A DNA stretch of 64,000 nucleotides from positions 53,010,001-53,074,000 of the forward strand of contig NC_043003.1 in NCBI RefSeq assembly GCF_006345805.1, in the 5' to 3' direction. The position numbers and the translations under genes are program-made. The notes beneath the pieces are model-generated. The model searched no databases. It saw nothing but the letters and a program-made list of their open reading frames with translations, and was not told the origin of the DNA. Source of the stretch: Octopus sinensis. Lineage: Eukaryota. Of this stretch, positions 252-28,045 are shown piece after piece (positions within the stretch are counted from its first letter, which is position 1; every line of letters begins with the position of its first letter).

Positions 252-410
252 AACCATAAGAAGAGCACGACTGTGATTGATAAAAGAGATTGACTCTGTT
301 TATTAAAATGAAAAGGAAACAAATGAACAATATTTCCATGTGTCTTTTGCCAGTTCTAAATATAAAATGAAATGAAATAAAAAAAAATAGGAAACGCTCA
401 TTCAAAATTG

Positions 411-464
411 AACCAGAATAACTGCGTTTCTTTTCACATATAACGACGTCATCAGTCTTTGGTA
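411..464 (-). ncRNA. Degenerate type-I hammerhead ribozyme motif downstream of a Penelope-like ORF
   Basis: Minus strand ACCAAAGA-CTGATGA-(18 nt)-GAAAC-GCA-GTT-ATTCTGGT: intact CUGAUGA and GAAA cores, ACCA/TGGT stem I, eroded stem II. Confidence 0.55.
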
Positions 465-541
465 TTTCATAAAAGGTAGCAGAAGGAAGGAAAGAAAGAC
501 AAAACAAAAAGAAAGGAAAGAATTGGGAAAATAAAATTTAT

Positions 542-1090
542 TCAGTCAAAAAGTTTAGTGTAAATATGGTGGAATTCACCTCCCTTTTTATTGATTCCTC
601 TAGGTGGAGATGTCAACAGTTCACAAATATATCTATCCTCATGGGTTTTGAGGACTGAAAGCGCAGTGGAGTGAGGGTATTTTATGAGAATGTGCACCTT
701 CAGGTCTTCCTCAAAATTACACCCGTTTGATGTGAAATGTTCCGCATGTTCTGTGGAATCACTGTTATTGTGCCTGACGTCGTACCTACGTCCGTTAAAT
801 CTTTTTTTATAATCGTTCTGTTGCTCAGCCAACATAAACCATTTTGCGTTTGGCACTTCCACCGCATACACCAAATGGGAATCCTTACAGGTCCCTCCTT
901 CTGTGTAAGTCATAACATTTCTGTTATAATTCTTGATGGAATTGGTCTGATACGTGTTATTGCACAACGAACAGGGCTTACCTCCTTTTTTGTGTGTTTT
1001 TGGAGGGTACAGCGTTCAGAAACAGCGATGGAGTCTTTATTTGAGGTACTGGTCAAAATTTCTCTAATATTCTTATTACGGCTACAATAG
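542..1090 (-). mobile_element. Penelope-like retroelement remnant, GIY-YIG endonuclease region (frameshifted)
   Basis: RNKNIREIL followed by TCKDSHLVYAVE...KRFNGRRYDVRH...HAEHF...EDRYICELLTSPPRGIN, matching the PLE GIY-YIG C-terminus. Confidence 0.8.
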
Positions 1091-3199: not shown

Positions 3200-6110
3200 T
3201 TTGCACAGTTTCTATCGCTAGAGATGTACTACGGTATCAGCTGTTCACTACCAGGGAACTCAGGTAACATCCTGTAGTTTTCGAGCACCATCCGGAGTAT
3301 TCAAGCGGTTCCAATCTGTTATTTTCTGCAAGTGCTTTACCCTTATTGTACCTCTATTTGTTCCATGTACTTCTCAAGATTTTTACTCACTGTTCCCAGG
3401 GCTCCCACAATCATGGTTCTACTACCACCTTTTTCATTGACCATAACTACTTAATTCCCAAGCTAACCTGTCATATCTATCGACTTTTCTATCTTTCTTA
3501 TCTCATACCTTGTTGTTAGCTGGGCATGCTATATCTATGATCCAGCAGTCTCTTCTCTCTCTTTTTCTTGGTACATACAGTCTGTCTATGTCACTTTTTG
3601 AGCGAAGCATCCCATATCTTGTCAGTAACTTCTTATCTTTATGTTTAGTTCGTCTACTGTTCATGCGATTACCCCTGCTCCATATCTAAGGAGTGAAACC
3701 GCCCCAGTTGTTGATAGCTTCAATCATATTCCATCCGTTTAATTGCGACTTAAGGATCAGTCTCAGTCTGCGCAAGTAATCCACCTTAAATTTTTCTGTC
3801 ATTTATTTCTCCATCAATTTATCTATTTCCAATATCCCCAAGTACTTATAGTCCGTCTCTTCTATCTGCTTCATAACCTCCCCCGACGGTATCTCTAGCC
3901 CGTCAATACATTTGATTTTGCCTCTCTTCAAGACTAACACACCACGCTTTTTCAGTTCAAACTCCATTCTGAAATCAGCACTGAAAGTATACACCGTATC
4001 AACGAGGGAACTGACTTCTGATTCATCGTTACCATAAAGTTTGAGGACGTCCATGAATAACAAGTGGTTGACTTTTTGCTGGCGGCTTTTGAATACATAC
4101 CCAGCCGTTGCTTTCCTCAGAATCAGTGTTAGTGGTATCATGCACTGTACAAAGATCAGTGGGAACAAGCAGTCTCCTTAGAAATACCTCTTCTGATTTC
4201 TATTGTCCCTAAATATTGTCCTCCACTTCGCCATACTTTTTCTAAGCAATCACTCAACATTCGATGCAGTACAAAATAGGTTCATACATTCCATAATCCA
4301 AGAATGTGGGATCACATCGTACGCTTTACGATAATCAATCCATGTCATGGCTAAGTTAGTTTCTTCCTCTTGCTGTCTCTAAGTACAGTTTTGTCTACCA
4401 GGAGTTGATCCTTGGTACCTCTGCACTTACGCTTACAACCTTTCTGATAATGTGGCAGGACACCATTTTTTCCAGATGTCTGTACATTGACTGTGTGACT
4501 ATTCCTGTCAATAATTTCCACTTAAGTGACAAGCAGGATATCGGCCTGTAATTGTTTACCGTATTGCCTTTTCCGATGTTTTTCAAGCAGAGCACTGTCA
4601 TACCCATTGTCACCACTCTGGTGTTACTTGGTCGACATTTAACAAGGTGTTGAGTTGTGCAGCTATTAGTGCATGACATTCACCAAATCTTTTGATCCAG
4701 TAGCCTTGAACTGTATCTGGTCCCGGGACTTCCAGTTGCCCAATTTTTGCTGATTTCCTTCACTTCCTTAACTGAAATGACTAGTTCTAACTGTTTTGTA
4801 CAGACTACTGTTTGTTTCAGTTCTTGCAACCATTCAGCATCCATCTTGTGCTCCTTGTCTTTGCTCCAGATGTCACTCCAAAACCTTTGACTTTCACTGT
4901 TATCTAGTATCAACTTTTCATCTGTACACGCTCCATTTATTTCTTTGTAGAATCTCTTCTGATCTACTCTGAATAACCTATTCTGCTGGCAACCCGTCAT
5001 TCTTTGGTTGTATATTACCATCTTTTTACTTTCTTTGCAACGAGGCACTGTTTCAATTCCTCCGTTACCACTTTCAGGCCCTTTCTTTCAATATTATATT
5101 TCCTGTTCAGTTCCCTGTATTTTTGTTCGCTTTTAACTTCCCCCTTTTCTTTTCGGTCTAACACAGAAATGTCATTCAAGAGCATATCTAACGCCGCCTG
5201 TATTCTTCTTTTCCACCATGGATCTTTTCTTTTGTCACTCCCATTATATTTCATTTTCTTGACATAAACACCCACATTTTCTGCTACTGCAATACTTGCT
5301 GCCTGGATCAAATTATTTGTTCTGTAATGTTTTCTGTTCTGATGTATTTCAGAATTTCATTCACATTTTTCGTTGCTTGGTTCAATTTCCACCGATCAAC
5401 CTTTTTAAGTTTGCAAATAATGTCGTTATCTTTCTCCTGTAGCCCAGCCCTTATTCTGTCGTAGATTGCCTTTTGCCCATCTGCCTTGTCACCATCAGTT
5501 TTATAGCCTTCCAAACCATCTTTATGTCTCTCATCAAGTATGCTACCATTGTTCCTTTCCTGTGATTTATTAGAGATTTCACCACTGTTTTCTGCTACGA
5601 GATTACTTTTATCAGTAGGAACTGTATTTTCATCGCTTCCTCTGCTGCTGTTTTCCAATACCCGTCTTTTGATAGCTTTGAGCTCTACTTCTGTGAACTA
5701 ACGATATTTTGTTATTGCTCTAGCTTGATCACATAATCTCTGTTCCGTGAGTTGAAACATTCCTCTTTTACTCCATTAATCATACATACGTTGTCGGTAT
5801 CCCCTAAGAAGAACACCATTTTGTTCATGGTTGCTCAGGAAGTAACACTCCATGACCACTGCATTGATTTATTTGTTCCATCTACGTTATGTATATGGTC
5901 CTTTGTTGGATAACAACAGGCTGAAATCGGACCAGTATCTCTGAGCTTGCCGGGTGTAACACTGTCACCATCAAGGGATTCAGTTTCATTACCTCCGTTA
6001 TTCACAATATTTTGTTTATTCATTGTCACTCATATGAGGTAGTGATTACCAGTGTTTTTATTGTGACACCATCACTAGATTATCATCAATCAGAACATGG
6101 GGAGATTCCA
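3200..6110 (-). mobile_element. Dong/R4 LINE, near full length with an internal deletion near 3550
   Basis: N-terminal TEQRLCDQARAI; RT motifs [24 protein letters not shown]; sequence jumps from DIDRLYVPRK to the RLE domain; microsatellites at both ends. Confidence 0.88.
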
Positions 6111-8747: not shown

Positions 8748-8804
<57 letters not shown>

Positions 8805-9471
8805 TTTTTTTTCTTCTTTCAAATTTGCTTCCATTTCTTGCCGAGTGTCTTCCCGACTCCTAGGGCAAAGAAACTCATAGTATACATTGGTAGGCCATTA
8901 AACCAAACTCAATAGTTCATTCATTTTTTTTTTTCAAGTTAAAAAACTATTACTACATGGGTAGTAATAGTTCTCACATCGACAATGCTCTTCTCAATAC
9001 GTGCGATGTACCAGTTAAGACAATCTTTTGCACTTCTTGCAGGGATGGTAAGCCAGCGATCATTCTCATATAATTTTCGGTTCCCTTCTTGATCATTCCT
9101 AGTGCTCCTACGATCACTGGTATTGTAACCGCCTTGAGATGCCACATTTTCTCAATTTCAATGAGTAGGTCTTTATATTTTCTGAGCTTGTCAAACTCTT
9201 TCGCTGAGATATTATGATCACAGGGGATGCTCATGTCGATCAATAAGCAAACTTTATTGTTTTGATCTTTCACAACAATATCTGGTTTATTGGCCTTGAT
9301 GGTTCGGTCTGTATGAATTGGAAAGTCCCACAGAATGGTTACATTTTCTCCTTCAGTTACAGCCTCAGGGTGGTGATTATACCACTTGTCGGCAGTTTTG
9401 ATATTGTAATGCCGACTTATTAGCCAGTGTAGATATTGGCCAACTCTGTCATGTCTTAATTTATACTCCAC
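8805..9471 (-). mobile_element. Dong/R4 LINE, 5'-truncated copy of a second subfamily with an open RLE frame
   Basis: ORF 8974-9471: RHD...ILWDFPIHTDRTIKANKPDIVV...LIDMSIP...EFDKLRKYKDL...PVIVGALG; distinct 3' UTR; (TTA)n on both sides. Confidence 0.92.
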
Positions 9472-9807: not shown

Positions 9808-10358
9808 CAGTAGTTTTATTTTTATAGCGTGCTTTCATTTCACTACCGAGCACAGCTCTGTGTGCCTTGGGTATGTGCTGAGATTTGTTGTGATGCTCTG
9901 ATGGTTATTGTATGGAAAGTGTTCTGCGTAGGATGTGTGCAGTGCCCAGTAGTGCAATTTTCTGTATGTTATATGTGTTTGTAAGTCCTGGTGTTTTTGT
10001 TTTGTATTTGTTTGAATATTTTTTATCATGCCTAATGCACCTACTATGATAGGAATTGTTTCTGTTTTTAGATTTCACATTCTGGTTACCTCTATTTCTA
10101 GGTCTTTGTATTTTGAGAGTTTCTCCATTTCTTTTAGAGACACGTTGTCATCTGCCAGTATTGATACATCAATTAGAAAACATTTTTTTCTTCATGATCT
10201 CTGACAACTATATCTGGTCTGTTGGCCTTAATTTCTCTATCTGTGTGTATCGGCATATTCCAGAGTATGGTTGCTTTCTCGTTTTCTGTGACCTTTTCTG
10301 GTGTGTGCCTATACCATCTTTTTTCTGTTGTTATTCCATAATGTTGGCATAGCTTCCA
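9808..10358 (-). mobile_element. Dong/R4 LINE, 5'-truncated copy (same subfamily as 8055-8745)
   Basis: Near-identical 3' end (cagtagttttatttttatagcgtgctttca); (TTA)n on both sides. Confidence 0.9.
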
Positions 10359-10422
10359 ATATTATTATTATATTATTATTATTATATTATTATTATTATT
10401 ATTATATTATTATATTATTATT

Positions 10423-10975
10423 GAGTGAGCGAGCAGAGCATGCCATCAAAGTGACACTGGGGTAAAATATACGAAGCCCAATATACCCATCATGACTACC
10501 CGTCTGATAAGGGTACACCAGGCACATGCATCACAACCATATGTGCGCGACATGGTGATCTCATATCAAGATAAACAGCACATGACCTTGCAGGTGGAGC
10601 CCAGTTAGAATTTTCTTCAGATCGAGTAACCCATCCCGCTCAAAAGGTCCCTGAATAAGGGTTGTTTAAGGACGTTGAACGAAACACCCATGTTTCCAGA
10701 GGTGAATTATTCAAACCCAAAGAATCCTTCTCAACACATGGCTATGATGCTCCCCCACTACTCTGCTCGTGATCAGAGATGCACATATCGTCAGCCACTA
10801 AGGGACATGCTCAACTGGTTAAGGTCAAACAACTGACAAGCAAATCTGTGGTATTGAGCAGAATATTTGCTGTAGCCCATCTTTTATACCAAAACAAAAC
10901 AATGTACATGATAACACTTCCAATCAGTTAAGATCAGAAGCCATGAGAGCCACTGCCTGGTACTGAATCAGGGCG
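10423..10975 (-). mobile_element. ~550-bp non-coding repeat unit in (TAA)n, full-length copy; SINE-like with a 5S-like head
   Basis: Three copies in the window share both termini; no ORF; flanked by (TTA)n; strand inferred. Confidence 0.8.
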
Positions 10976-11027
<52 letters not shown>

Positions 11028-11044
11028 TATTATTATTATTATTA

Positions 11045-12098
11045 TTTTCTCCTTATCACAATTTTGTTGGAGCTCCTGGAGTCTTGCACGTGTTGCGGGC
11101 TAACTACCTGTACCATGCTATTCCTTCTTTTCGGCTATCTAATACTTTTCTGAATATTCTGGCCGTGCCAAGAGGGTAAACCTTTTGTAGCAGTTCTATC
11201 GGGCACTGTATTCCAATTTCCTATATATTCCTCTTGATGCCTTCTGATACTGTTACCAAGGACTCATCAATAATTGGCACTATCTTCACCTTCTTCATTT
11301 TCCATTGGCGGGCTATTACTTGCATGCGGAGCGAGCTGACTTTTTGCAGCCTACGGTATACTTTCCTGATTATTCTGGGCGTGCCAAGTAGGTAAGCCTG
11401 TTGTACTGGGTACTCAATTCCAATTTTCTTTATATTCCTCTTGATGCCTTCCGATACTGTCCCCAAGAACCCAACAATGATTGGCACTTCACCTTTTTCA
11501 TTTACCATAGTCGGGTAATTTCGTACTTAAGAGAATTGTATCTATCAATCTTTTCACCTTCCTTCTTGAATATTCGTGGATCAAACGGGCATGCAACATC
11601 AACTATATAACATATGTGGTGCACCTTGTCCACCACCACTAGGTCTGGTCTGTTATGCTCTAGCACCTGATCTGTTTGGATTGGGAAATCCCAGAGGATG
11701 TTGCTAGTCTCCAACTCTGCCACTCTCTACAGTTTTTTTTCACCAACTTCTGTTGTGGTTACACGGAATTGATTGTGTAGTCCCTTGTTGCGTAATTCTT
11801 CTTCGTGTCCTTTTTGTACTTCTTTCTTTGTTTTCCCTTTTTCTCTGCTCTCAATACTTCCTCGTTCCTAACTGTGGCTAGCAAGGTTTCCTTACTTTGG
11901 GCTAGGTATCTCATTAAATTCTCGAGTTCGATAAGCACGCAGTCTTCCACACTTATCAGTCTCCTTCCTCCATTTGCTTTCTTCATTTATAGGCGATCAG
12001 TGTCTACTCATGAATGATGGGCTTCATGCATCGTTAGAAGCTTTCTTGACTTCCTGTCCATCTCCTTTAGCTCCTTCTCTGTCCACTTCAGGATTCTA
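11045..12098 (-). mobile_element. Dong/R4 LINE 3' part, third subfamily, with a duplicated 3' end and internal deletion
   Basis: GGRRLISVEDC; ILWDFPIQTDQVLEHNRPDLVVVDK...IVDVACPFD; the PII.G.LGTVSEGIKRNI segment occurs twice. Confidence 0.88.
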
Positions 12099-12134: not shown

Positions 12135-12765
12135 TACCTTTTAATCTGCATATTTGTTACAACCACTCGCCGAAACACACCCAGCATCCTAGGGTGAGTG
12201 AAAGATAAGAGATGTTATTGTATAACTGAAAGCTTGGGTTGGGAAGTGGCAAGGGCAGTAGCAAAATATCTTCATGTAGCACACCATAGACATTTAAATG
12301 TATAGTTTTTTTTTAATGATGTAGGCAGTTCTTGTAAACATAATCTTTTAGATTTCTCTGAGACATGGTTCTCCTGGGAGATTATATAGATGTTTATGAC
12401 ATTCCTTTCTTATCAGACATAGGGCATCTACAATAACAGGTGCAGTTATCGCTTTAAGAGGCCACATCGTTTGTATTTCAATTTCCAAGTCCTTATATTT
12501 ACTTAATTTTTCAAATTCCTTTACAGATATATTTTTATCAGTGGGAACACTTACATCTATAAGTCTAAAAGTATTTTTTCCTCTGTCTTTAATGACTATG
12601 TCTGGTCAGTTAGTCTGGATCCTTCTGTCGGTGTTGACTGGAAAATCCCAGAGGATAGAAACATTTTTACCTTCAACGACTGACTCAGGATGATGTTCAT
12701 ACCAGTAAGTAGGAGTGCTTATTTTGTAGTGTTTCATATTTTCCAATATAAATACAGTCCTCCCT
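12135..12765 (-). mobile_element. Dong/R4 LINE 3' fragment, fourth subfamily
   Basis: Minus strand ILWDFPVNTDRRIQTN*PDIVIKD...DVSVPTDKNISVKEFEKLSKYKDLEIEIQTMW. Confidence 0.85.
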
Positions 12766-12777
12766 ATTATTATTATT

Positions 12778-13033
12778 GAATGAGAGAGCAGTGCATGCCA
12801 TCAAAGTGACACTGGGGTAAAATATACGAAGCCCAGTATACCCATCACGACTACCCGTCTGATAAAGGTACACTAGGCACATGCATCACAACCATAAGCA
12901 AATCTGTGCTATTGAGCAGAATATTTGCTGTAGCCCATCTTTTATACCAAAACAAAACAATGTACATGATGACACTTCCAATCAGTTAAGATCAGAAGCC
13001 ATGAGAGCCACAGTCTGGTACTGAATCAGGGCG
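12778..13033 (-). mobile_element. Internally deleted copy of the ~550-bp unit
   Basis: Same ends as 10423-10975; about 300 bp missing at the junction acaaccat|aagcaaatctgtg. Confidence 0.8.
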
Positions 13034-13072
<39 letters not shown>

Positions 13073-13092: not shown

Positions 13093-13145
<53 letters not shown>

Positions 13146-13381
13146 TTATTGGGCTAAAATCAGTTGGTTTGCGGATGGACTCCTGGAAAGCCGGGACGAT
13201 GTCGTCGGACGCCGGACTTACGGACCAGTTAAAGTGCTCTGAGTCTCGTTTGGTCCCGACTTCCAGGTTGATAACAACTGGGACGTGGTGGCGAACAGGG
13301 TGGCCAGTCTTACTCATCATCATCATCATCATCATCATCATTATCATTATTATTATTATTATATCATTATTATTATTATTA

Positions 13382-13429: not shown

Positions 13430-16400
13430 GTCATAAAACCCCCATAGCTTATTTTGCTGGGTATGATGGAAAGTCTCAGCTCTCCACAGCCAGCAGACTA
13501 AGGTGACACTTTAATACTGGTCATGGTTTAAAAATACTACTAAGAATTCTTGCAGTTCTAAGCAATGCTAATTTTTGTGGGTGTTCTACCTTTACACTTG
13601 CACCAATCTTTTTTTAGTCATGCTGGTAGTTGAGTGCTGATACTTCCAAGTGATCCAATTACTATTGGCACCACGTCTACTCTCCTCATTGACCATGATC
13701 TTCGTATTTCTCACTTTAAATCGTCATAGTTGTTCATTGTATTTTCTTCTTTCTCGTTGATCCTGTTGTCACCGGGGCAAGTTATGTCGATTATCATAAT
13801 ATTCCTTGTTTTTTATTCACCACAACAATGTCCGGTTTCCGATGTCTGGTCAGGTGATCGTACTGAATCATTGCATCCCACAGGATTTTGCAATTCTCAT
13901 TCTCGGTGACTCCTTTCGTGGTTTGCTCATACCAAGTCTTTGCTCTCTCTAGGCCGTGATTTTCACATAACTCCCAATGGATCATTCTTGCCACATTGTC
14001 ATGGCGTCTTTTGTATTCACTTTGTGTTAATTTCAAGCATTCGCTAACGATGTCCCATACTGTTTCACCCTTCTCACCACACAATTTGCATTTGTTGCTT
14101 TCGGTAGTGTTGTCTATTCTGCACTTCAAATAGTTGGTCCTTAACGCTTGTTCTTGAGCTGCGCATATGAGTGCTTCTACTTTCAGGTCACTCCTCCACA
14201 TCCATAACCACCGGTCCTCTGTATTTGTCTTGGCGTTCAGATCTCTTGCGAACTGACCGTACATTTTTTTCTCCTTCCATGCTGTTTCTTTTTGTGTGTT
14301 CATTTCTTCTTTAAACTTTTCTTTCATTATACAATTCTCAGTTTTGATGACGCCGGCCTTCTTTGTATGTTTCACTAATGACTCCACAGCATTTTTTTGT
14401 ATACCACCCCAAATTGTTTTCTTCTGTTTAGATACAGTCCTGGCAACTAATCAAGCCTCTCCCACAAGTACAGCCTATCGGTGTCACTTTTAGGGTGGAA
14501 GGCTCCGTGAACTGTCAACATTTTTCTTGTCTTTGTATCCACTTTCATGACTTCTCTCTTTTGCCATTTTATAATTCCAGCTCCATACCGAAGTGATGCT
14601 ATCGCCCACGTATTAACTGCTTGGATTTTATTCCATCCAGTCAATTTTGAGGGCAACACCAACCTTAGTCTACGGAAATGTTCCATCCTCAGTTGTTCTT
14701 TCATTTCCTTCTCCATTATCTTGTCGCCTTCCGTTTCAATTTGTTTAATCTATTCGGTAATGCTATCCCTGATAGGGACTGTAACTTTCCTCTTTTTAAG
14801 TAGATTATTCCGCATTTCTTGAGACCGAATTCCATTCTGTAATATCAGCACTAAAATAGTGGACCGTGTTCCCGAAGGAACTCACTTCTGTCTCAGCCTT
14901 GCCATACAGTTTCAACTTATTCATGAAGAGGAGGTGGTTGATTGCTTGGGATTTTCCTTTTAGTTGGTATCCCATGTTCATTTTCCTAAGTACCAAGATT
15001 AGGGGTGTCATGCAGAGAACATCGCCCTGGAACATCCCTCTTCTGATACTAAGCTTTTTCCGTAAGATGTCAGTTCAGTTTTCCATCACACCATACTTCT
15101 CTTCAGAAAACACGTTACATTCCTCGTAGTTCCAAACAGATATAAACATTCAATGATCCATAAATGTGGACTTATACCATAAGTTTTGCGATAGTCAGTT
15201 CAGGCCATTCCCAAATTTCTTCTCCGTTTACAATCTTGCATTACCATTTTGTCTATCTATAAATGATCTTTGGTACCTCTGCATCACCCTCTACAGCCTT
15301 TTTATTCCATCGGTAATATATTGTTCTCATCAAGAAATTTGTACAATTCCTCAGCAATTCCTCCTGATAGTAACTTCCACATCAATCGGAGGCAAGAAAT
15401 TGGCCTGTAATTGTCACCAGCATTTACCTTTGATGCATCCTTCAGACACAACACCGTTCATCCTTTTGTCAACCAGCCTTTAAATTGCTCTGCGATTAAT
15501 TTATAGCAACTACTGAAGTTTTTTTTTATCTAAAATCCCTGTCCACCCTCAGGTCCTGCTGCTTATCTTTTTACTAATATTTCTGATACTGTCTTCTCTG
15601 AAGTGGATAGCCCCTTGCTGGGGATAAGAAGCTGTTTGTTTCAAGCTGCAAAAACATTCAGCTGTAGTATTATGTTGTTCTTGCTTACTCCATATCTTAC
15701 CCTAGAAAAGCCGAATTTCATCAGCATCGGGGACTAATCTTTCACGTATTTTATCATCATTAATCTCTTGATAAAATCTTTTTTGGTTGGATCTAAACAA
15801 TTTGCTTTGCTGGATGTGCTTAAACCGTTGTTCAAACCTAACTAGCCTTGCTTTTTTGCAAGTATGTGCTGCTTCAGTTCTTCAATTACAACATTCAAGC
15901 CATGTATATCTACACCATACTTCTTCCTAACTTTTTCGAGTTTGCACTCATTCTTAAGTTCTCCATTTCTTTTCCTGTCAAGTATTGACACTACACTGCT
16001 CAAGGAGTTTATATCTTCTGAAATTCTCCTTGTCCAACAAGATTGTTTATTTCCTCTTCTATTCGTTACTGTTCTGTTCTCAGGAGTTCTCAATCTCATC
16101 CTTTTTGCCACAATACTACCAGAAGCCTTGATAAGATTATTTGTTTGTGTGATGTTCTTTGTTTCAATGTGTCTCAATACATTATTGACTTTACTCGTCT
16201 CTTGATTTAGTCTCCATAGGTTAGCCTTCTTAAAGTCGCACTTAAACTCTGTCCCTTCTGTATTTAGTAGATCCCAAATCCTACCTATTACTGATCTGTC
16301 TTCATTGCTTAAGTAGTCCCTGATCTTAATTCTTTCACAATTCACGGTAGTATATTCTTGCGAACACCTGTCCATCTCTTCCACTACATCACTTTCGTTT

Positions 16401-25974: not shown

Positions 25975-26175
25975 GTGGTTCAATGGCAGAATCTTTAGCG
26001 CGACGAACAAAGTGCTTAGCGAGCATTTCGCCCGCCTCTGTGTTCTGAATTCAAATTCCACCGAGGTCGACTTTGCCTTTCATTCTTTCGGGATCGATGA
26101 AATAAATTTAATTTGAGCACTGGGGTCGATGTAATCCCGCGAAATTGCTGGCCTTGCGTCCAAATTTGAAACTAT
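25975..26175 (+). mobile_element. SINE family A
   Basis: gaattcaaattccaccgaggtcgactttgcctttcattctttcgggatcg. Confidence 0.8.
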
Positions 26176-26230
26176 TATTATCATTATTATTATTATTATT
26201 ATTAATATTATTATTATTATTATTATTATT

Positions 26231-26744
26231 GAGTGAGAAAGCAGCGCATGCCATCAAAGTGACACTACGGTAAAATATACGAAGCCCAGTATATCCATCA
26301 TGACTGCCCGTCGAGCGACATGGTGAGCTCATATCAAGATAAACAGCACATAACCTTGCAGGTGGGGCCCAGTTAGAATTTTCTTCTGGTTGAGTAACCC
26401 ATCCCTCTCAAAAGGTCCCTGAAAAAGGGTTGTTTAAGGATTTTGAACGAAATACCCATGTTTCCAGAGGTGAATTATTCAAATCCAAAAGAATCTCTCT
26501 CAACACATGGCTATGATGCTCCCCCACTACTTCTGCTAGTGATCAGAGATACACATATCGTCAGCCACTAAGGGACATGCTCAACTGGTTAAGGTCAAAC
26601 AACTGACAAGCAAATCTGTGTTATTGAGCAGAATATTTGCTGTAACCCATCTTTTATATCAAGGTAAAACAATGTACATGATAACATTTCCAATCAGTTA
26701 AGATCAGAAGCCACGAGAGCCGCTGCCTAGTACTGTATTAGTGC
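26231..26744 (-). mobile_element. Third copy of the ~550-bp unit (small internal deletion)
   Basis: Same termini as 10423-10975; flanked by (TTA)n. Confidence 0.8.
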
Positions 26745-26789
26745 AATTATTATTATTATTTTCATTATTATAATTATTATCATTATTAT

Positions 26790-28045
26790 TATTTTCTCAT
26801 TATCACAGTCTTTGTTAGAGTTCCTGGAGTCTTGCATACGTAGCGAGCTGACTATTTGCTGCCTACGGTATACTTTCCTGATTATTCTGGCCGTGACAAG
26901 TGGGCAAACCTTTTGTACTGGCCACTCAATTCCAATTTTCTTTATATTCCTCTTGATGCCTTCCGATACTTTCCCCAAGAACCCAACAATAATTGGCACT
27001 ATCCTCACCTTTTTCATTTACCATAGTCGGGTTATTTCGTACTTAAGAGGATTGTATCTATCGATCTTTTCACCTTCCTTCTTGAATATTCGTCGATCAA
27101 AAGGGCATGCAACATCAACTATATAACATATGTGGTGCACCTTGTCCACCACCACTAGGTCTGGTCTGTTATGCTCAAGCACATGATCTGTTTGGATTGG
27201 GAAATCCCAGAGGATGTTGCTAGTCTCCAACCCTGCCACTCTCTGCGGTTTGCACTCATACCACGTCTTGCCTATCTCTAGAGCTCCTAATTTCGTACAC
27301 TTTCCAATATAGCACTTTCGCTACCTGGTCATGTCGTCACAACCTTTTTTGGTTTTTGGCAAGTCTAGGGCACTCATTTGTGATATGGGCAATGGTTTCA
27401 TCACCTCTATTGCAGATGCACTCACGTTTATCTTCCGATTCGTGGCAAAAGCTTGATCCTACGCTGCCAGTATAGTGCTCTAGGTTTCCTTTTTTTAGGG
27501 TTCCGTTCACCACCCAATTCCACCTATTTTTCCCAGCAACTTCTGTGGTGGTTACATGGTATTGATTGTGTAGTCCCTTCTTGCGTAATTCTTCTTCATG
27601 TCCTTTTTGTACTTCTTCCTTTGTTTTTCCTTTTTCTCTGCTCTCAATACTCCCTCGTCCCTAACTGTCGCTAGCAAAGTTTCCTTACTTTAGGATAAGT
27701 ATCTCATCAAGCTCTCGAGTTCGATACGCACGCAGTCTTCCACAATTATCAGTCCCCTTCCTCCATTTGCTCTCTTCATGTGGAGATCATCAGTGTCTGC
27801 ACGTGGATGATAGGCTCCATGCATCGTTAGGAGCTTTCATGACTTCCTGTCCATCTCTTTTAACTCCTTCTCTGTCCACTTCAAGATTACAGCGCCATAC
27901 CGAACTACTGTGACTGTGCACGAGTTTATTGCGAAATTGTTTCTGGTATTCAACTTTGAAGCCCACATCTTTCTCACTCTCCTTCATGTCGTGGTGTTAG
28001 ATTCCGTCTGCCTTAAGTATTCCCAGGTATTTATAGCTCGATTGA
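26790..28045 (-). mobile_element. Dong/R4 LINE 3' part (same subfamily as 11045-12098)
   Basis: ILWDFPIQTDHVLEHNRPDLVVVDKVHHICYIVDVACPFD; CICNRGDETIAHITNEC knuckle. Confidence 0.88.

What the first reader, a model, noticed from the sequence alone, without database searches (positions are those of the whole stretch)
10423..10975. Candidate (TAA)n-targeted SINE with a cryptic 5S rRNA-like head, possibly mobilised by Dong/R4
Seen: three copies (10423, 12778, 26231) share both termini, have no ORF, sit in (TTA)n and adjoin Dong/R4 copies. Fixed ends despite internal deletions argue against 5'-truncated LINE UTRs. On the minus strand the first ~145 nt carry 5S-like words in 5S order: GCC, TACCA, CTGATCT (5S CCGATCT), CTGAT, GGAAG, GTA, GATGGG, AATACC, TGCTTGT (5S TGCTGT). 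The 5' CTGAT can pair with GTCAG at the end of this block, like 5S helix I. Known: SINE3 elements use the 5S internal Pol III promoter, and Dong inserts in TAA repeats. Inference: a 5S-derived non-autonomous partner of a sequence-specific RLE retrotransposon. The alignment was done by eye and is gappy, and I cannot tell whether the family is already described.
Basis: partly seen in the sequence, partly recalled or inferred. Interest (0 to 1): 0.72.

Follow-up and report, generated by a model that had tools for sequence, protein, structure and literature searches.

The report
Dong-hitchhiking SINE, no 5S head
This is an abundant 556-base non-coding jumping element that sits in TAA repeats and shows no 5S rRNA-derived front end; it likely borrows the enzyme of Dong retrotransposons, probably through a hairpin near its tail that resembles one the Dong families share.

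Summary
The element is real; the 5S head is not supported. It is a 556-nt, ORF-less family of roughly 40,000 copies (12 in 800 kb of evenly spaced tiles). The 3' end is fixed and joins (AAT)n in Dong's orientation. The 5' end has a fixed maximum but is often truncated (2 of 12 tile copies complete), so 'fixed ends' holds only for the 3' end. The head scores no better than shuffles against Rfam, a host-5S covariance model, pairwise alignment or the promoter boxes. Its last third belongs to a 170-nt segment shared with an older MITE. Three young Dong/R4 families with long open frames exist here; none shares alignable sequence with the element. Seven Dong tail types share a covarying 3'-UTR hairpin. 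A model built only from them scores the element's hairpin, 73 nt from its 3' end, at 16 bits (E 4.5e-4; none as high in 200 kb of background). This is moderate evidence, found after the fact. Best reading: a Dong-mobilised non-autonomous retroposon with no identifiable head, like Entamoeba EhSINE1. The scan noted a similar, probably identical, family on another piece (e1-10333100).

The parts
10423..10976 (-). Copy 1, full-length young member of the 556-nt family
   Evidence: best genomic copies 95-99% identical
12778..13034 (-). Copy 2, both ends kept, element positions ~140-437 missing
26231..26746 (-). Copy 3, older (86%), 40-nt deletion removes the left arm of the 3' hairpin
10474..10523 (-). 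Dong-type 3' hairpin in copy 1 (two stems, CCTTA bulge, C-GGGTA-G loop); likely RT recognition signal (inferred)
   Evidence: 13.6 bits with the Dong-only model; 16.0 bits, E 4.5e-4 in copy L008
12829..12878 (-). The same hairpin in copy 2
   Evidence: 14.3 bits
10707..10871 (-). Middle segment (element ~103-272) shared with the inside of a ~470-nt MITE family
   Evidence: 163 of 170 positions equal the MITE column majority
10832..10976 (-).
10360..10422 (.). TAA/TTA array at the 3' side of copy 1
10977..11046 (.). TAA/TTA array at the 5' side of copy 1
13035..13072 (.). TAA/TTA array at the 5' side of copy 2
26173..26230 (.). TAA/TTA array at the 3' side of copy 3
26746..26803 (.). TAA/TTA array at the 5' side of copy 3
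8804..9471 (-). 5'-truncated copy of young Dong family A (RLE domain, 3' UTR with hairpin at 8828-8876)
9808..10359 (-). 5'-truncated Dong family B fragment next to copy 1
11047..12095 (-). Decayed Dong family D fragments next to copy 1
13430..16000 (-). Older Dong family E copy (RT to RLE, hairpin at 13466-13514); upper limit is where I stopped reading
26804..27890 (-). Decayed Dong family D fragment next to copy 3

Best explanation
It is a 556-nt non-coding repeat family with no detectable 5S head, sitting in (TAA)n arrays in the same orientation as Dong LINEs, and it is likely copied by Dong/R4 reverse transcriptase-endonuclease that probably recognises a Dong-type hairpin near its 3' end. 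Inferred steps: the Dong protein binds the RNA, nicks a TAA/TTA array and primes reverse transcription at the fixed 3' end; early termination gives the many 5'-truncated copies, and re-annealing at the 5' junction gives short duplications of the first ~18 nt. The complete 5' end is most likely made by processing out of read-through transcripts (about 45%), otherwise by an unrecognised internal promoter (about 40%); this step is untested. The body is a mosaic: an unidentified ~100-nt head, 170 nt shared with a MITE, and a tail carrying the hairpin.
For: Target and polarity: 30 of 30 fetched top copies have TAA-type repeats on both sides. In unbiased tiles 11 of 12 copies are followed by AAT repeats and 8 of 11 assessable ones are directly preceded by them; chance of both at a random point is 0.15% in one orientation. 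81 of 83 3' ends are followed by (AAT)n and none by (ATT)n alone, as for Dong A 28/29, B 39/40, C 13/14. Of 42 copies with an intact 3' end, not selected for length, 13 start at 1-3 and 29 at 6-521 (a few may be cut by locus edges). Partners exist: Dong A, B and C have open frames of 1116, 1226 and 1286 codons and copies 97-99% alike. Hairpin: ten 3'-UTR stretches from seven Dong tail types align without gaps; 83.6% of cells pair, 28 double changes against 9.4 in shuffles. A model from these alone gives the element 16.0 bits, E 4.5e-4, right strand, all 14 pairs formed. Nine copies rank 6-14 of 21 hits in 100 kb, above the remaining background; 0 hits of 16 bits or more in 200 kb of element-free tiles. 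Dong targets TAA repeats (PMC3812793, passage).
Against: No alignable primary sequence is shared with any Dong copy fetched, unlike typical SINE-LINE pairs. The hairpin score (12-17 bits) is far below real Dong tails (28-44 bits in the window), and the background holds 3 hits of 14.5 bits or more and 6 of 12 or more in 200 kb. Default filters lose all element hits. I defined the motif after seeing the element's hairpin and used 10 of 51 candidate rows; Dong B (8 rows), an A-like family (3 rows) and one stray row did not fit the five-base-loop register and were left out. Sequence-only p is 0.036 for the whole element, 0.010 for the last 150 nt. The hairpin lies 73 nt from the end, against 46-62 in the Dong rows used. 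Copy 3 and two other copies have lost part of it, and it is no more conserved among copies than the rest. The head does not resemble Dong A or C 5' ends (p 0.24-0.62). No empty site or TSD was obtained.
Confidence: 0.72

Rival explanations
1. A SINE3: the first ~145 nt descend from 5S rRNA and supply a type 1 Pol III promoter.
For: A box-C-like word matches host box C at 9 of 11, at position 95. A few short words fall in 5S order. At 50% simulated substitution my test has only 65-76% power, so extreme divergence is not excluded.
Against: No 5S hit among the 3 Rfam matches at E<=10. Host-5S model: 6.1 bits, E 6.8, a 27-nt hairpin only. Pairwise z -0.49 to +0.74 in 16 tests. Simulated 5S derivatives with up to 45% substitutions plus indels score as low as observed in at most 1.8% of runs. 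Promoter-only alignments p 0.34-0.87; box A 4 of 11, although SINE3 heads keep the promoter best (PMC10886601, passage). ATGGG occurs four times in the element. Positions 103-145 belong to the MITE-shared segment. A T4 run lies at 78.
Confidence: 0.06
2. An internal-deletion derivative (SIDE-like, bipartite LINE) of a Dong family I did not sample, so that head and tail are that family's own UTR ends.
For: R2 makes such elements (PMC3414825, abstract). Bombyx Dong has a self-cleaving 5' end (PMC3774820, passages). One O. vulgaris annotation lists 51 Dong-R4 families; I sampled about eight tail types and complete 5' ends of only A and C. A 41-column stretch of the head lines up loosely with the Dong A 5' end.
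Against: That alignment is not significant (p 0.26-0.32). The best-supported loose ends in eight sequencing runs show the MITE, TAA and other short repeats, no LINE joined to the tail (most rows not shown). Bipartite non-autonomous LINEs were reported only for RTE, Ingi, Vingi and R2 (PMC5786205, passage).
Confidence: 0.12
3. It is mobilised by another TAA-associated retroelement, such as a Penelope-like GIY-YIG element or a Tx1/CR1-type LINE, and the hairpin likeness is chance.
For: A fragment that looks like a GIY-YIG domain by eye (window ~540-1015) ends at a TAA array in the same orientation (no Pfam hit). Another repeat with a CTGATGA core starts after TAA arrays. The hairpin evidence is moderate.
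Against: No hammerhead geometry in the element and no terminal-repeat structure. Orientation and junction register equal Dong's.
Confidence: 0.08
4. It is only the 3' UTR of a LINE seen as 5'-truncated copies.
For: 5' truncation is common.
Against: 48 of 54 copies that reach position 1-3 have TAA repeats within 15 nt upstream and 5 carry a short self-duplication; none of the 30 top copies runs on into coding sequence.
Confidence: 0.02

Closest known systems
EhSINE1 of Entamoeba histolytica (PMC2996970, passages; PMC3118788, reference titles)
   Same: 500-600 nt, no ORF, no identified small-RNA precursor, only weak Pol III boxes, partner LINE with a restriction-like endonuclease (its R4-clade placement is recalled, not read).
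   Different: EhSINE1 shares about 70 nt of 3' sequence with EhLINE1 and inserts at T-rich sites. This element shares no alignable sequence with the Dong copies fetched, only a hairpin, and sits in (TAA)n.
R2 SIDEs and R2/R1 hybrid SIDEs of Drosophila (PMC3414825, abstract and outline)
   Same: Short non-autonomous elements using a site-specific LINE's machinery and target.
   Different: SIDEs are recognisable 5' ribozyme plus 3' UTR of the partner and are rare. Here neither end aligns to a partner, no ribozyme was found, and there are tens of thousands of copies.
Dong elements of the R4 clade (PMC3812793 and PMC3774820, passages)
   Same: TAA target, same orientation and 3' junction, 5' truncation, similar 3' hairpin.
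   Different: Dong encodes its RT and RLE; this element encodes nothing.
SINE3 (5S-derived SINEs; PMC10886601 and PMC5786205, passages)
   Same: Size class, non-coding, LINE-dependent.
   Different: No 5S similarity and no box A / IE / box C set above chance.

Membership tests
SINE3 | 5' head homologous to 5S rRNA | tested here: not met
SINE3 | Box A, IE and box C at 5S spacing | tested here: not met
   box A 4/11, IE 1-3/6, box C 9/11, p 0.22-0.75
SINE3 | Pol III transcription from +1 | not testable with these tools
   only contigs of runs not on record as RNA were available
tRNA-SINE (SINE2) or SINEU | tRNA- or U1/U2-derived head | tested here: not met
   ARAGORN 0; no box A/B match with fewer than 2 mismatches; host U2 best E 0.15 on the opposite strand; no Rfam hit; host U1 not fetched
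Non-autonomous non-LTR retroposon | No coding capacity, many dispersed copies | tested here: met
Non-autonomous non-LTR retroposon | Fixed 3' end, variable 5' truncation, defined full-length 5' end | tested here: met
Non-autonomous non-LTR retroposon | Target-site duplication | tested here: inconclusive
   hidden in the TAA arrays; no empty site bridged
Dong/R4-dependent element | Same target, orientation and junction as Dong | tested here: met
Dong/R4-dependent element | 3' end sequence shared with the partner LINE | tested here: not met
   no BLAST sharing with Dong A, B, C, E, F copies
Dong/R4-dependent element | 3' structure shared with the partner LINE | tested here: inconclusive
   positive but moderate and post hoc: 16 bits, E 4.5e-4; lost with default filters
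Dong/R4-dependent element | Mobilisation by Dong protein in trans | not testable with these tools
   needs an assay
SIDE / bipartite LINE | 5' end homologous to the partner's 5' end | tested here: not met
   p 0.24-0.62 against Dong A and C; other families' complete 5' ends not obtained
SIDE / bipartite LINE | [quoted passage not shown] | tested here: inconclusive
   no hit in the element, but the strict descriptor also missed Dong A, B and C heads, so there is no positive control

The most novel reading that the evidence does not exclude
An animal SINE-like element with no small-RNA head that parasitises the microsatellite-specific Dong/R4 machinery by structural mimicry: it carries the covarying 3'-UTR hairpin common to divergent Dong families without their sequence, so several Dong enzymes could copy it. 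The hairpin would then be the RNA recognition signal of Dong RT.
Probability: 0.45. Interest if true: 0.6.

Novelty: new variant of a known kind. Interest (0 to 1): 0.4.

Why it matters
If the partnership holds, it gives a natural minimal substrate for a sequence-specific R4-clade enzyme and a concrete, covariation-backed candidate for the RNA signal that Dong proteins recognise. That makes the question of how restriction-endonuclease LINEs choose their template directly testable by stem swaps. It also shows a very abundant short retroposon that fits none of the tRNA, 5S, 7SL or snRNA classes and shares its middle with a DNA-transposon derivative. I could not search Repbase, Dfam or SINEBase, so the family may already be catalogued, perhaps as an unclassified SINE (893 such recently active families in one octopus annotation, PMC13282606).

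Tried and rejected
5S head: rejected. The whole-window Rfam scan listed 150 of 262 matches, none 5S; 112 were not shown. Against the whole element a few settings gave p 0.02-0.06, on both strands alike, so I treat them as noise. U2-derived head: rejected. tRNA head: none. Coding relic: none. Hammerhead: CTGA-N-GA cores at 183 and 359 lack a matching stem II (judged by eye). HDV-like ribozyme: no hit, test uninformative; Rfam also gave nothing for Dong A and C 5' ends. Shared termini with Dong: none. Search for an older subfamily with the 79% copy L151 returned only ordinary copies at 79-81%. Expression: no RNA holder listed; contigs of four RNA-guessed runs cover the element but cannot show transcription. 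Empty site in four other runs: none bridged, repeats were skipped. Sigma-70 scan irrelevant here. Literature: nine searches answered; no listing showed a Dong-mobilised SINE in an animal. The 2015 octopus genome paper is not held, and Repbase, Dfam and SINEBase are not available, so absence from print is not established.

Full report
1. Observation. The three copies exist on the minus strand at 10423-10976, 12778-13034 and 26231-26746. They share both ends and lie between TAA/TTA arrays. Copy 2 lacks about 300 nt of the middle; copy 3 is 86% identical and lacks 40 nt. There is no ORF of 150 codons and no Pfam match better than E 0.12 in six frames. Neighbouring fragments translate to RT, zinc-knuckle and restriction-like endonuclease motifs of Dong/R4 type (the motif names and the clade label are my recalled reading). 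The genome is likely an octopus (inference; R4-Dong is almost confined to cephalopods among molluscs, PMC10294476, one passage).

2. The family in the genome. A DNA search found 3151 candidates, scored 40, and listed 42 matches at 95-100% identity. All 30 fetched have TAA-type repeats on both sides and none runs into coding sequence. Because these were selected for full length, I took 80 evenly spaced 10-kb tiles. They gave 13 hits: 12 element copies in 7 tiles and one MITE. That is about 40,000 copies by proportion (my arithmetic; 21,000-71,000 if Poisson, wider because copies cluster). Ten of 12 reach position 554-556 and 11 are followed by AAT repeats. Only 2 are complete at the 5' end, 9 start at 24-501 and 1 is cut by the tile edge. 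Identity runs from 79% to 97%, so the family has been active over a long time. Across all loci, 66 of 81 3' ends are followed by exactly AATAAT. Of 54 copies with an intact 5' end, 48 have TAA repeats within 15 nt upstream and 5 carry a duplication of the first ~18 nt. This is the pattern expected of target-primed reverse transcription into a pre-existing array.

3. The 5S head fails. I fetched the host 5S genes (47 matches). Rfam on the element gave 3 weak matches, none 5S. A covariance model of host 5S with filters off gave 6.1 bits (E 6.8) for a 27-nt hairpin, tied for tenth of 15 hits in 19 kb. Sixteen pairwise tests of the first 150 nt gave z from -0.49 to +0.74. Simulated 5S derivatives with 45% substitutions and 3-8% indels beat the null in 88-93% of runs and scored as low as the element in at most 1.8%; at 50% power falls to 65-76%. 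SINE3 heads keep their promoter best (PMC10886601, passages), so I tested that alone: p 0.34-0.87 for alignments, and box A 4/11, IE 1-3/6, box C 9/11, p 0.22-0.75. The one good word is box-C-like, but ATGGG occurs four times in the element. U2, tRNA and hammerhead origins also failed.

4. A shared middle. Positions ~103-272 also form the inside of a separate ~470-nt family with ~100-nt inverted ends. Its ends read CACTGTG and many copies are flanked by TTA/TAA, which suggests a Tourist/PIF-type MITE (label recalled). It has 6098 candidates, 40 scored, at 82-87% to the query. The element matches the majority of 15 MITE copies at 163 of 170 positions, while single MITE copies match it at 88-95%. 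The direction of exchange is not settled.

5. Candidate partners. Three Dong families are young: A (frame of 1116 codons, RVT_1 E 1.5e-30), B (1226, 1119) and C (1286 down to 1189), each with 150 scored matches at 96-100% protein identity. They use the same orientation: 3' ends followed by (AAT)n in 28/29, 39/40 and 13/14 copies, against 81/83 for the element and 0 followed by (ATT)n alone. BLAST with word 7 against 60 Dong loci found only separate nested copies of the element, MITE-type partial hits and chance-level short hits. The 5' ends of A and C resemble each other (p 0.001) but not the element's head (p 0.24-0.62). B's true 5' end may not have been captured.

6. The 3' hairpin. Reading Dong tails I noticed a hairpin like one in the element. 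A script listed 51 candidates. I aligned 10 rows from seven tail types and left out redundant rows, Dong B (8 rows), an A-like family (3 rows) and one stray row, which did not fit the five-base-loop register. The ten align without gaps, with six invariant columns. Two stems pair in 83.6% of cells with 28 double changes (shuffles 9.4; 0 of 500 as high; slid controls at most 49%). The tool warns that related rows and a structure read from the same rows inflate these controls. A model from these rows alone scores a young element copy at 16.0 bits, E 4.5e-4 for 556 nt, sense strand, positions 456-505, all 14 pairs formed with one inserted base. In the window copies 1 and 2 score 13.6 and 14.3, below four Dong tails (27.8-43.9) and one unclassified hit of 17.6. 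In 100 kb, nine copies rank 6-14 of 21 hits (11.8-16.8 bits), under five stronger hits that I take for Dong tails (two checked against neighbouring Dong fragments) and over the rest. In 200 kb without the element there are 0 hits of 16 bits or more, 3 of 14.5 or more, 6 of 12 or more. Against this: default filters drop every element hit; a sequence-only matrix gives p 0.036 and 0.010; the motif was chosen after the fact; the hairpin is 73 nt from the end rather than 46-62; three of 51 aligned copies have lost part of it, and it is no better conserved than the rest. In leave-one-out scoring the element (6.8-12.1) falls within the range of held-out Dong families (0.9-23.2). I rate it as probably real.

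7. Mechanism. Shown: size, lack of coding, abundance, target, polarity, truncation, mosaic body, absence of 5S similarity. Inferred: Dong protein binds the element's RNA, probably at the hairpin, nicks a TAA/TTA array and copies from the fixed 3' end. Untested: how the full-length RNA arises. Bombyx Dong cuts itself out of a longer transcript with an HDV-like ribozyme (PMC3774820, passages and section 16), so processing from read-through transcripts is my first guess. My descriptor found no such fold but also missed the local Dong heads. An unrecognised internal promoter is nearly as likely.

8. Known kinds. It works like EhSINE1 and the R2 SIDEs: a short passenger of a restriction-endonuclease LINE. 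It is not a SINE3, since two defining features were tested and not met. It is not shown to be a SIDE. Kojima's survey lists bipartite non-autonomous LINEs only for RTE, Ingi, Vingi and R2 (PMC5786205, passages). Nine paper searches listed no Dong-mobilised animal SINE, but the repeat databases were out of reach. For PMC13282606 I read part 1 of 3 and searched its supplement; it does not describe single families there. PMC8967140, PMC4758252 and PMC4640811 (passages) added nothing on this family. It is probably the same family, though a look-up by sequence found nothing. It agrees with my reading, reached before I saw it, and is not independent support.

9. Verdict. Real element, wrong head. 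A new variant of a known kind; interest 0.40. The testable new part is the covarying Dong 3'-UTR hairpin and its likely counterpart in this element.

Noticed in passing
L125-L139; L063:119-585: A ~470-nt MITE family (inverted ends of ~100 nt, TTA/TAA flanks, 6098 candidates) whose inside shares 170 nt with the element.
   Followed up: partly
window 8828-8876, 12157-12205, 13466-13514, 3227-3275 (minus); alignment A3: Seven Dong tail types share a two-stem 3'-UTR hairpin with strong covariation. In families E and F the loop could also pair with a downstream stretch (pseudoknot, by eye).
   Followed up: partly
L113, L105, L104, L107, L101 (Dong A) and L193, L195, L197 (Dong C): Dong A and C have long 5' UTRs whose first ~90 nt resemble each other (p 0.001) and look structured; Dong A's also holds two ~450-nt tandem repeats and an internal A run. 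No Rfam ribozyme match.
   Followed up: partly
G000: At least three young Dong families with open frames over 1100 codons coexist and stack with each other and with the element in the same TAA arrays.
   Followed up: yes
window 10881-10888 (minus; element 89-96): A TATAAAAG word lies about 30 nt before a TCAAT; positions 41-120 are the least diverged part among copies (1.8-2.5%). Several truncated copies start at 97-110. May be chance.
   Followed up: no
L005, L019, L055, L190, L209: Five of 54 full-length copies are preceded by a duplicate of their first ~10-18 nt.
   Followed up: partly
window ~260-1015 (minus): A fragment that looks like a Penelope GIY-YIG end by eye finishes at a TAA array; no Pfam hit.
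   Followed up: no
window 13145-13313: A 170-nt GC-richer fragment between copy 2 and Dong E, bounded by TTG and TCA repeats; not identified.
   Followed up: no
L031, L035: Dispersed 5S copies followed by a T run and a shared repeat, apart from the tandem 5S cluster on C4; possibly retroposed 5S.
   Followed up: no
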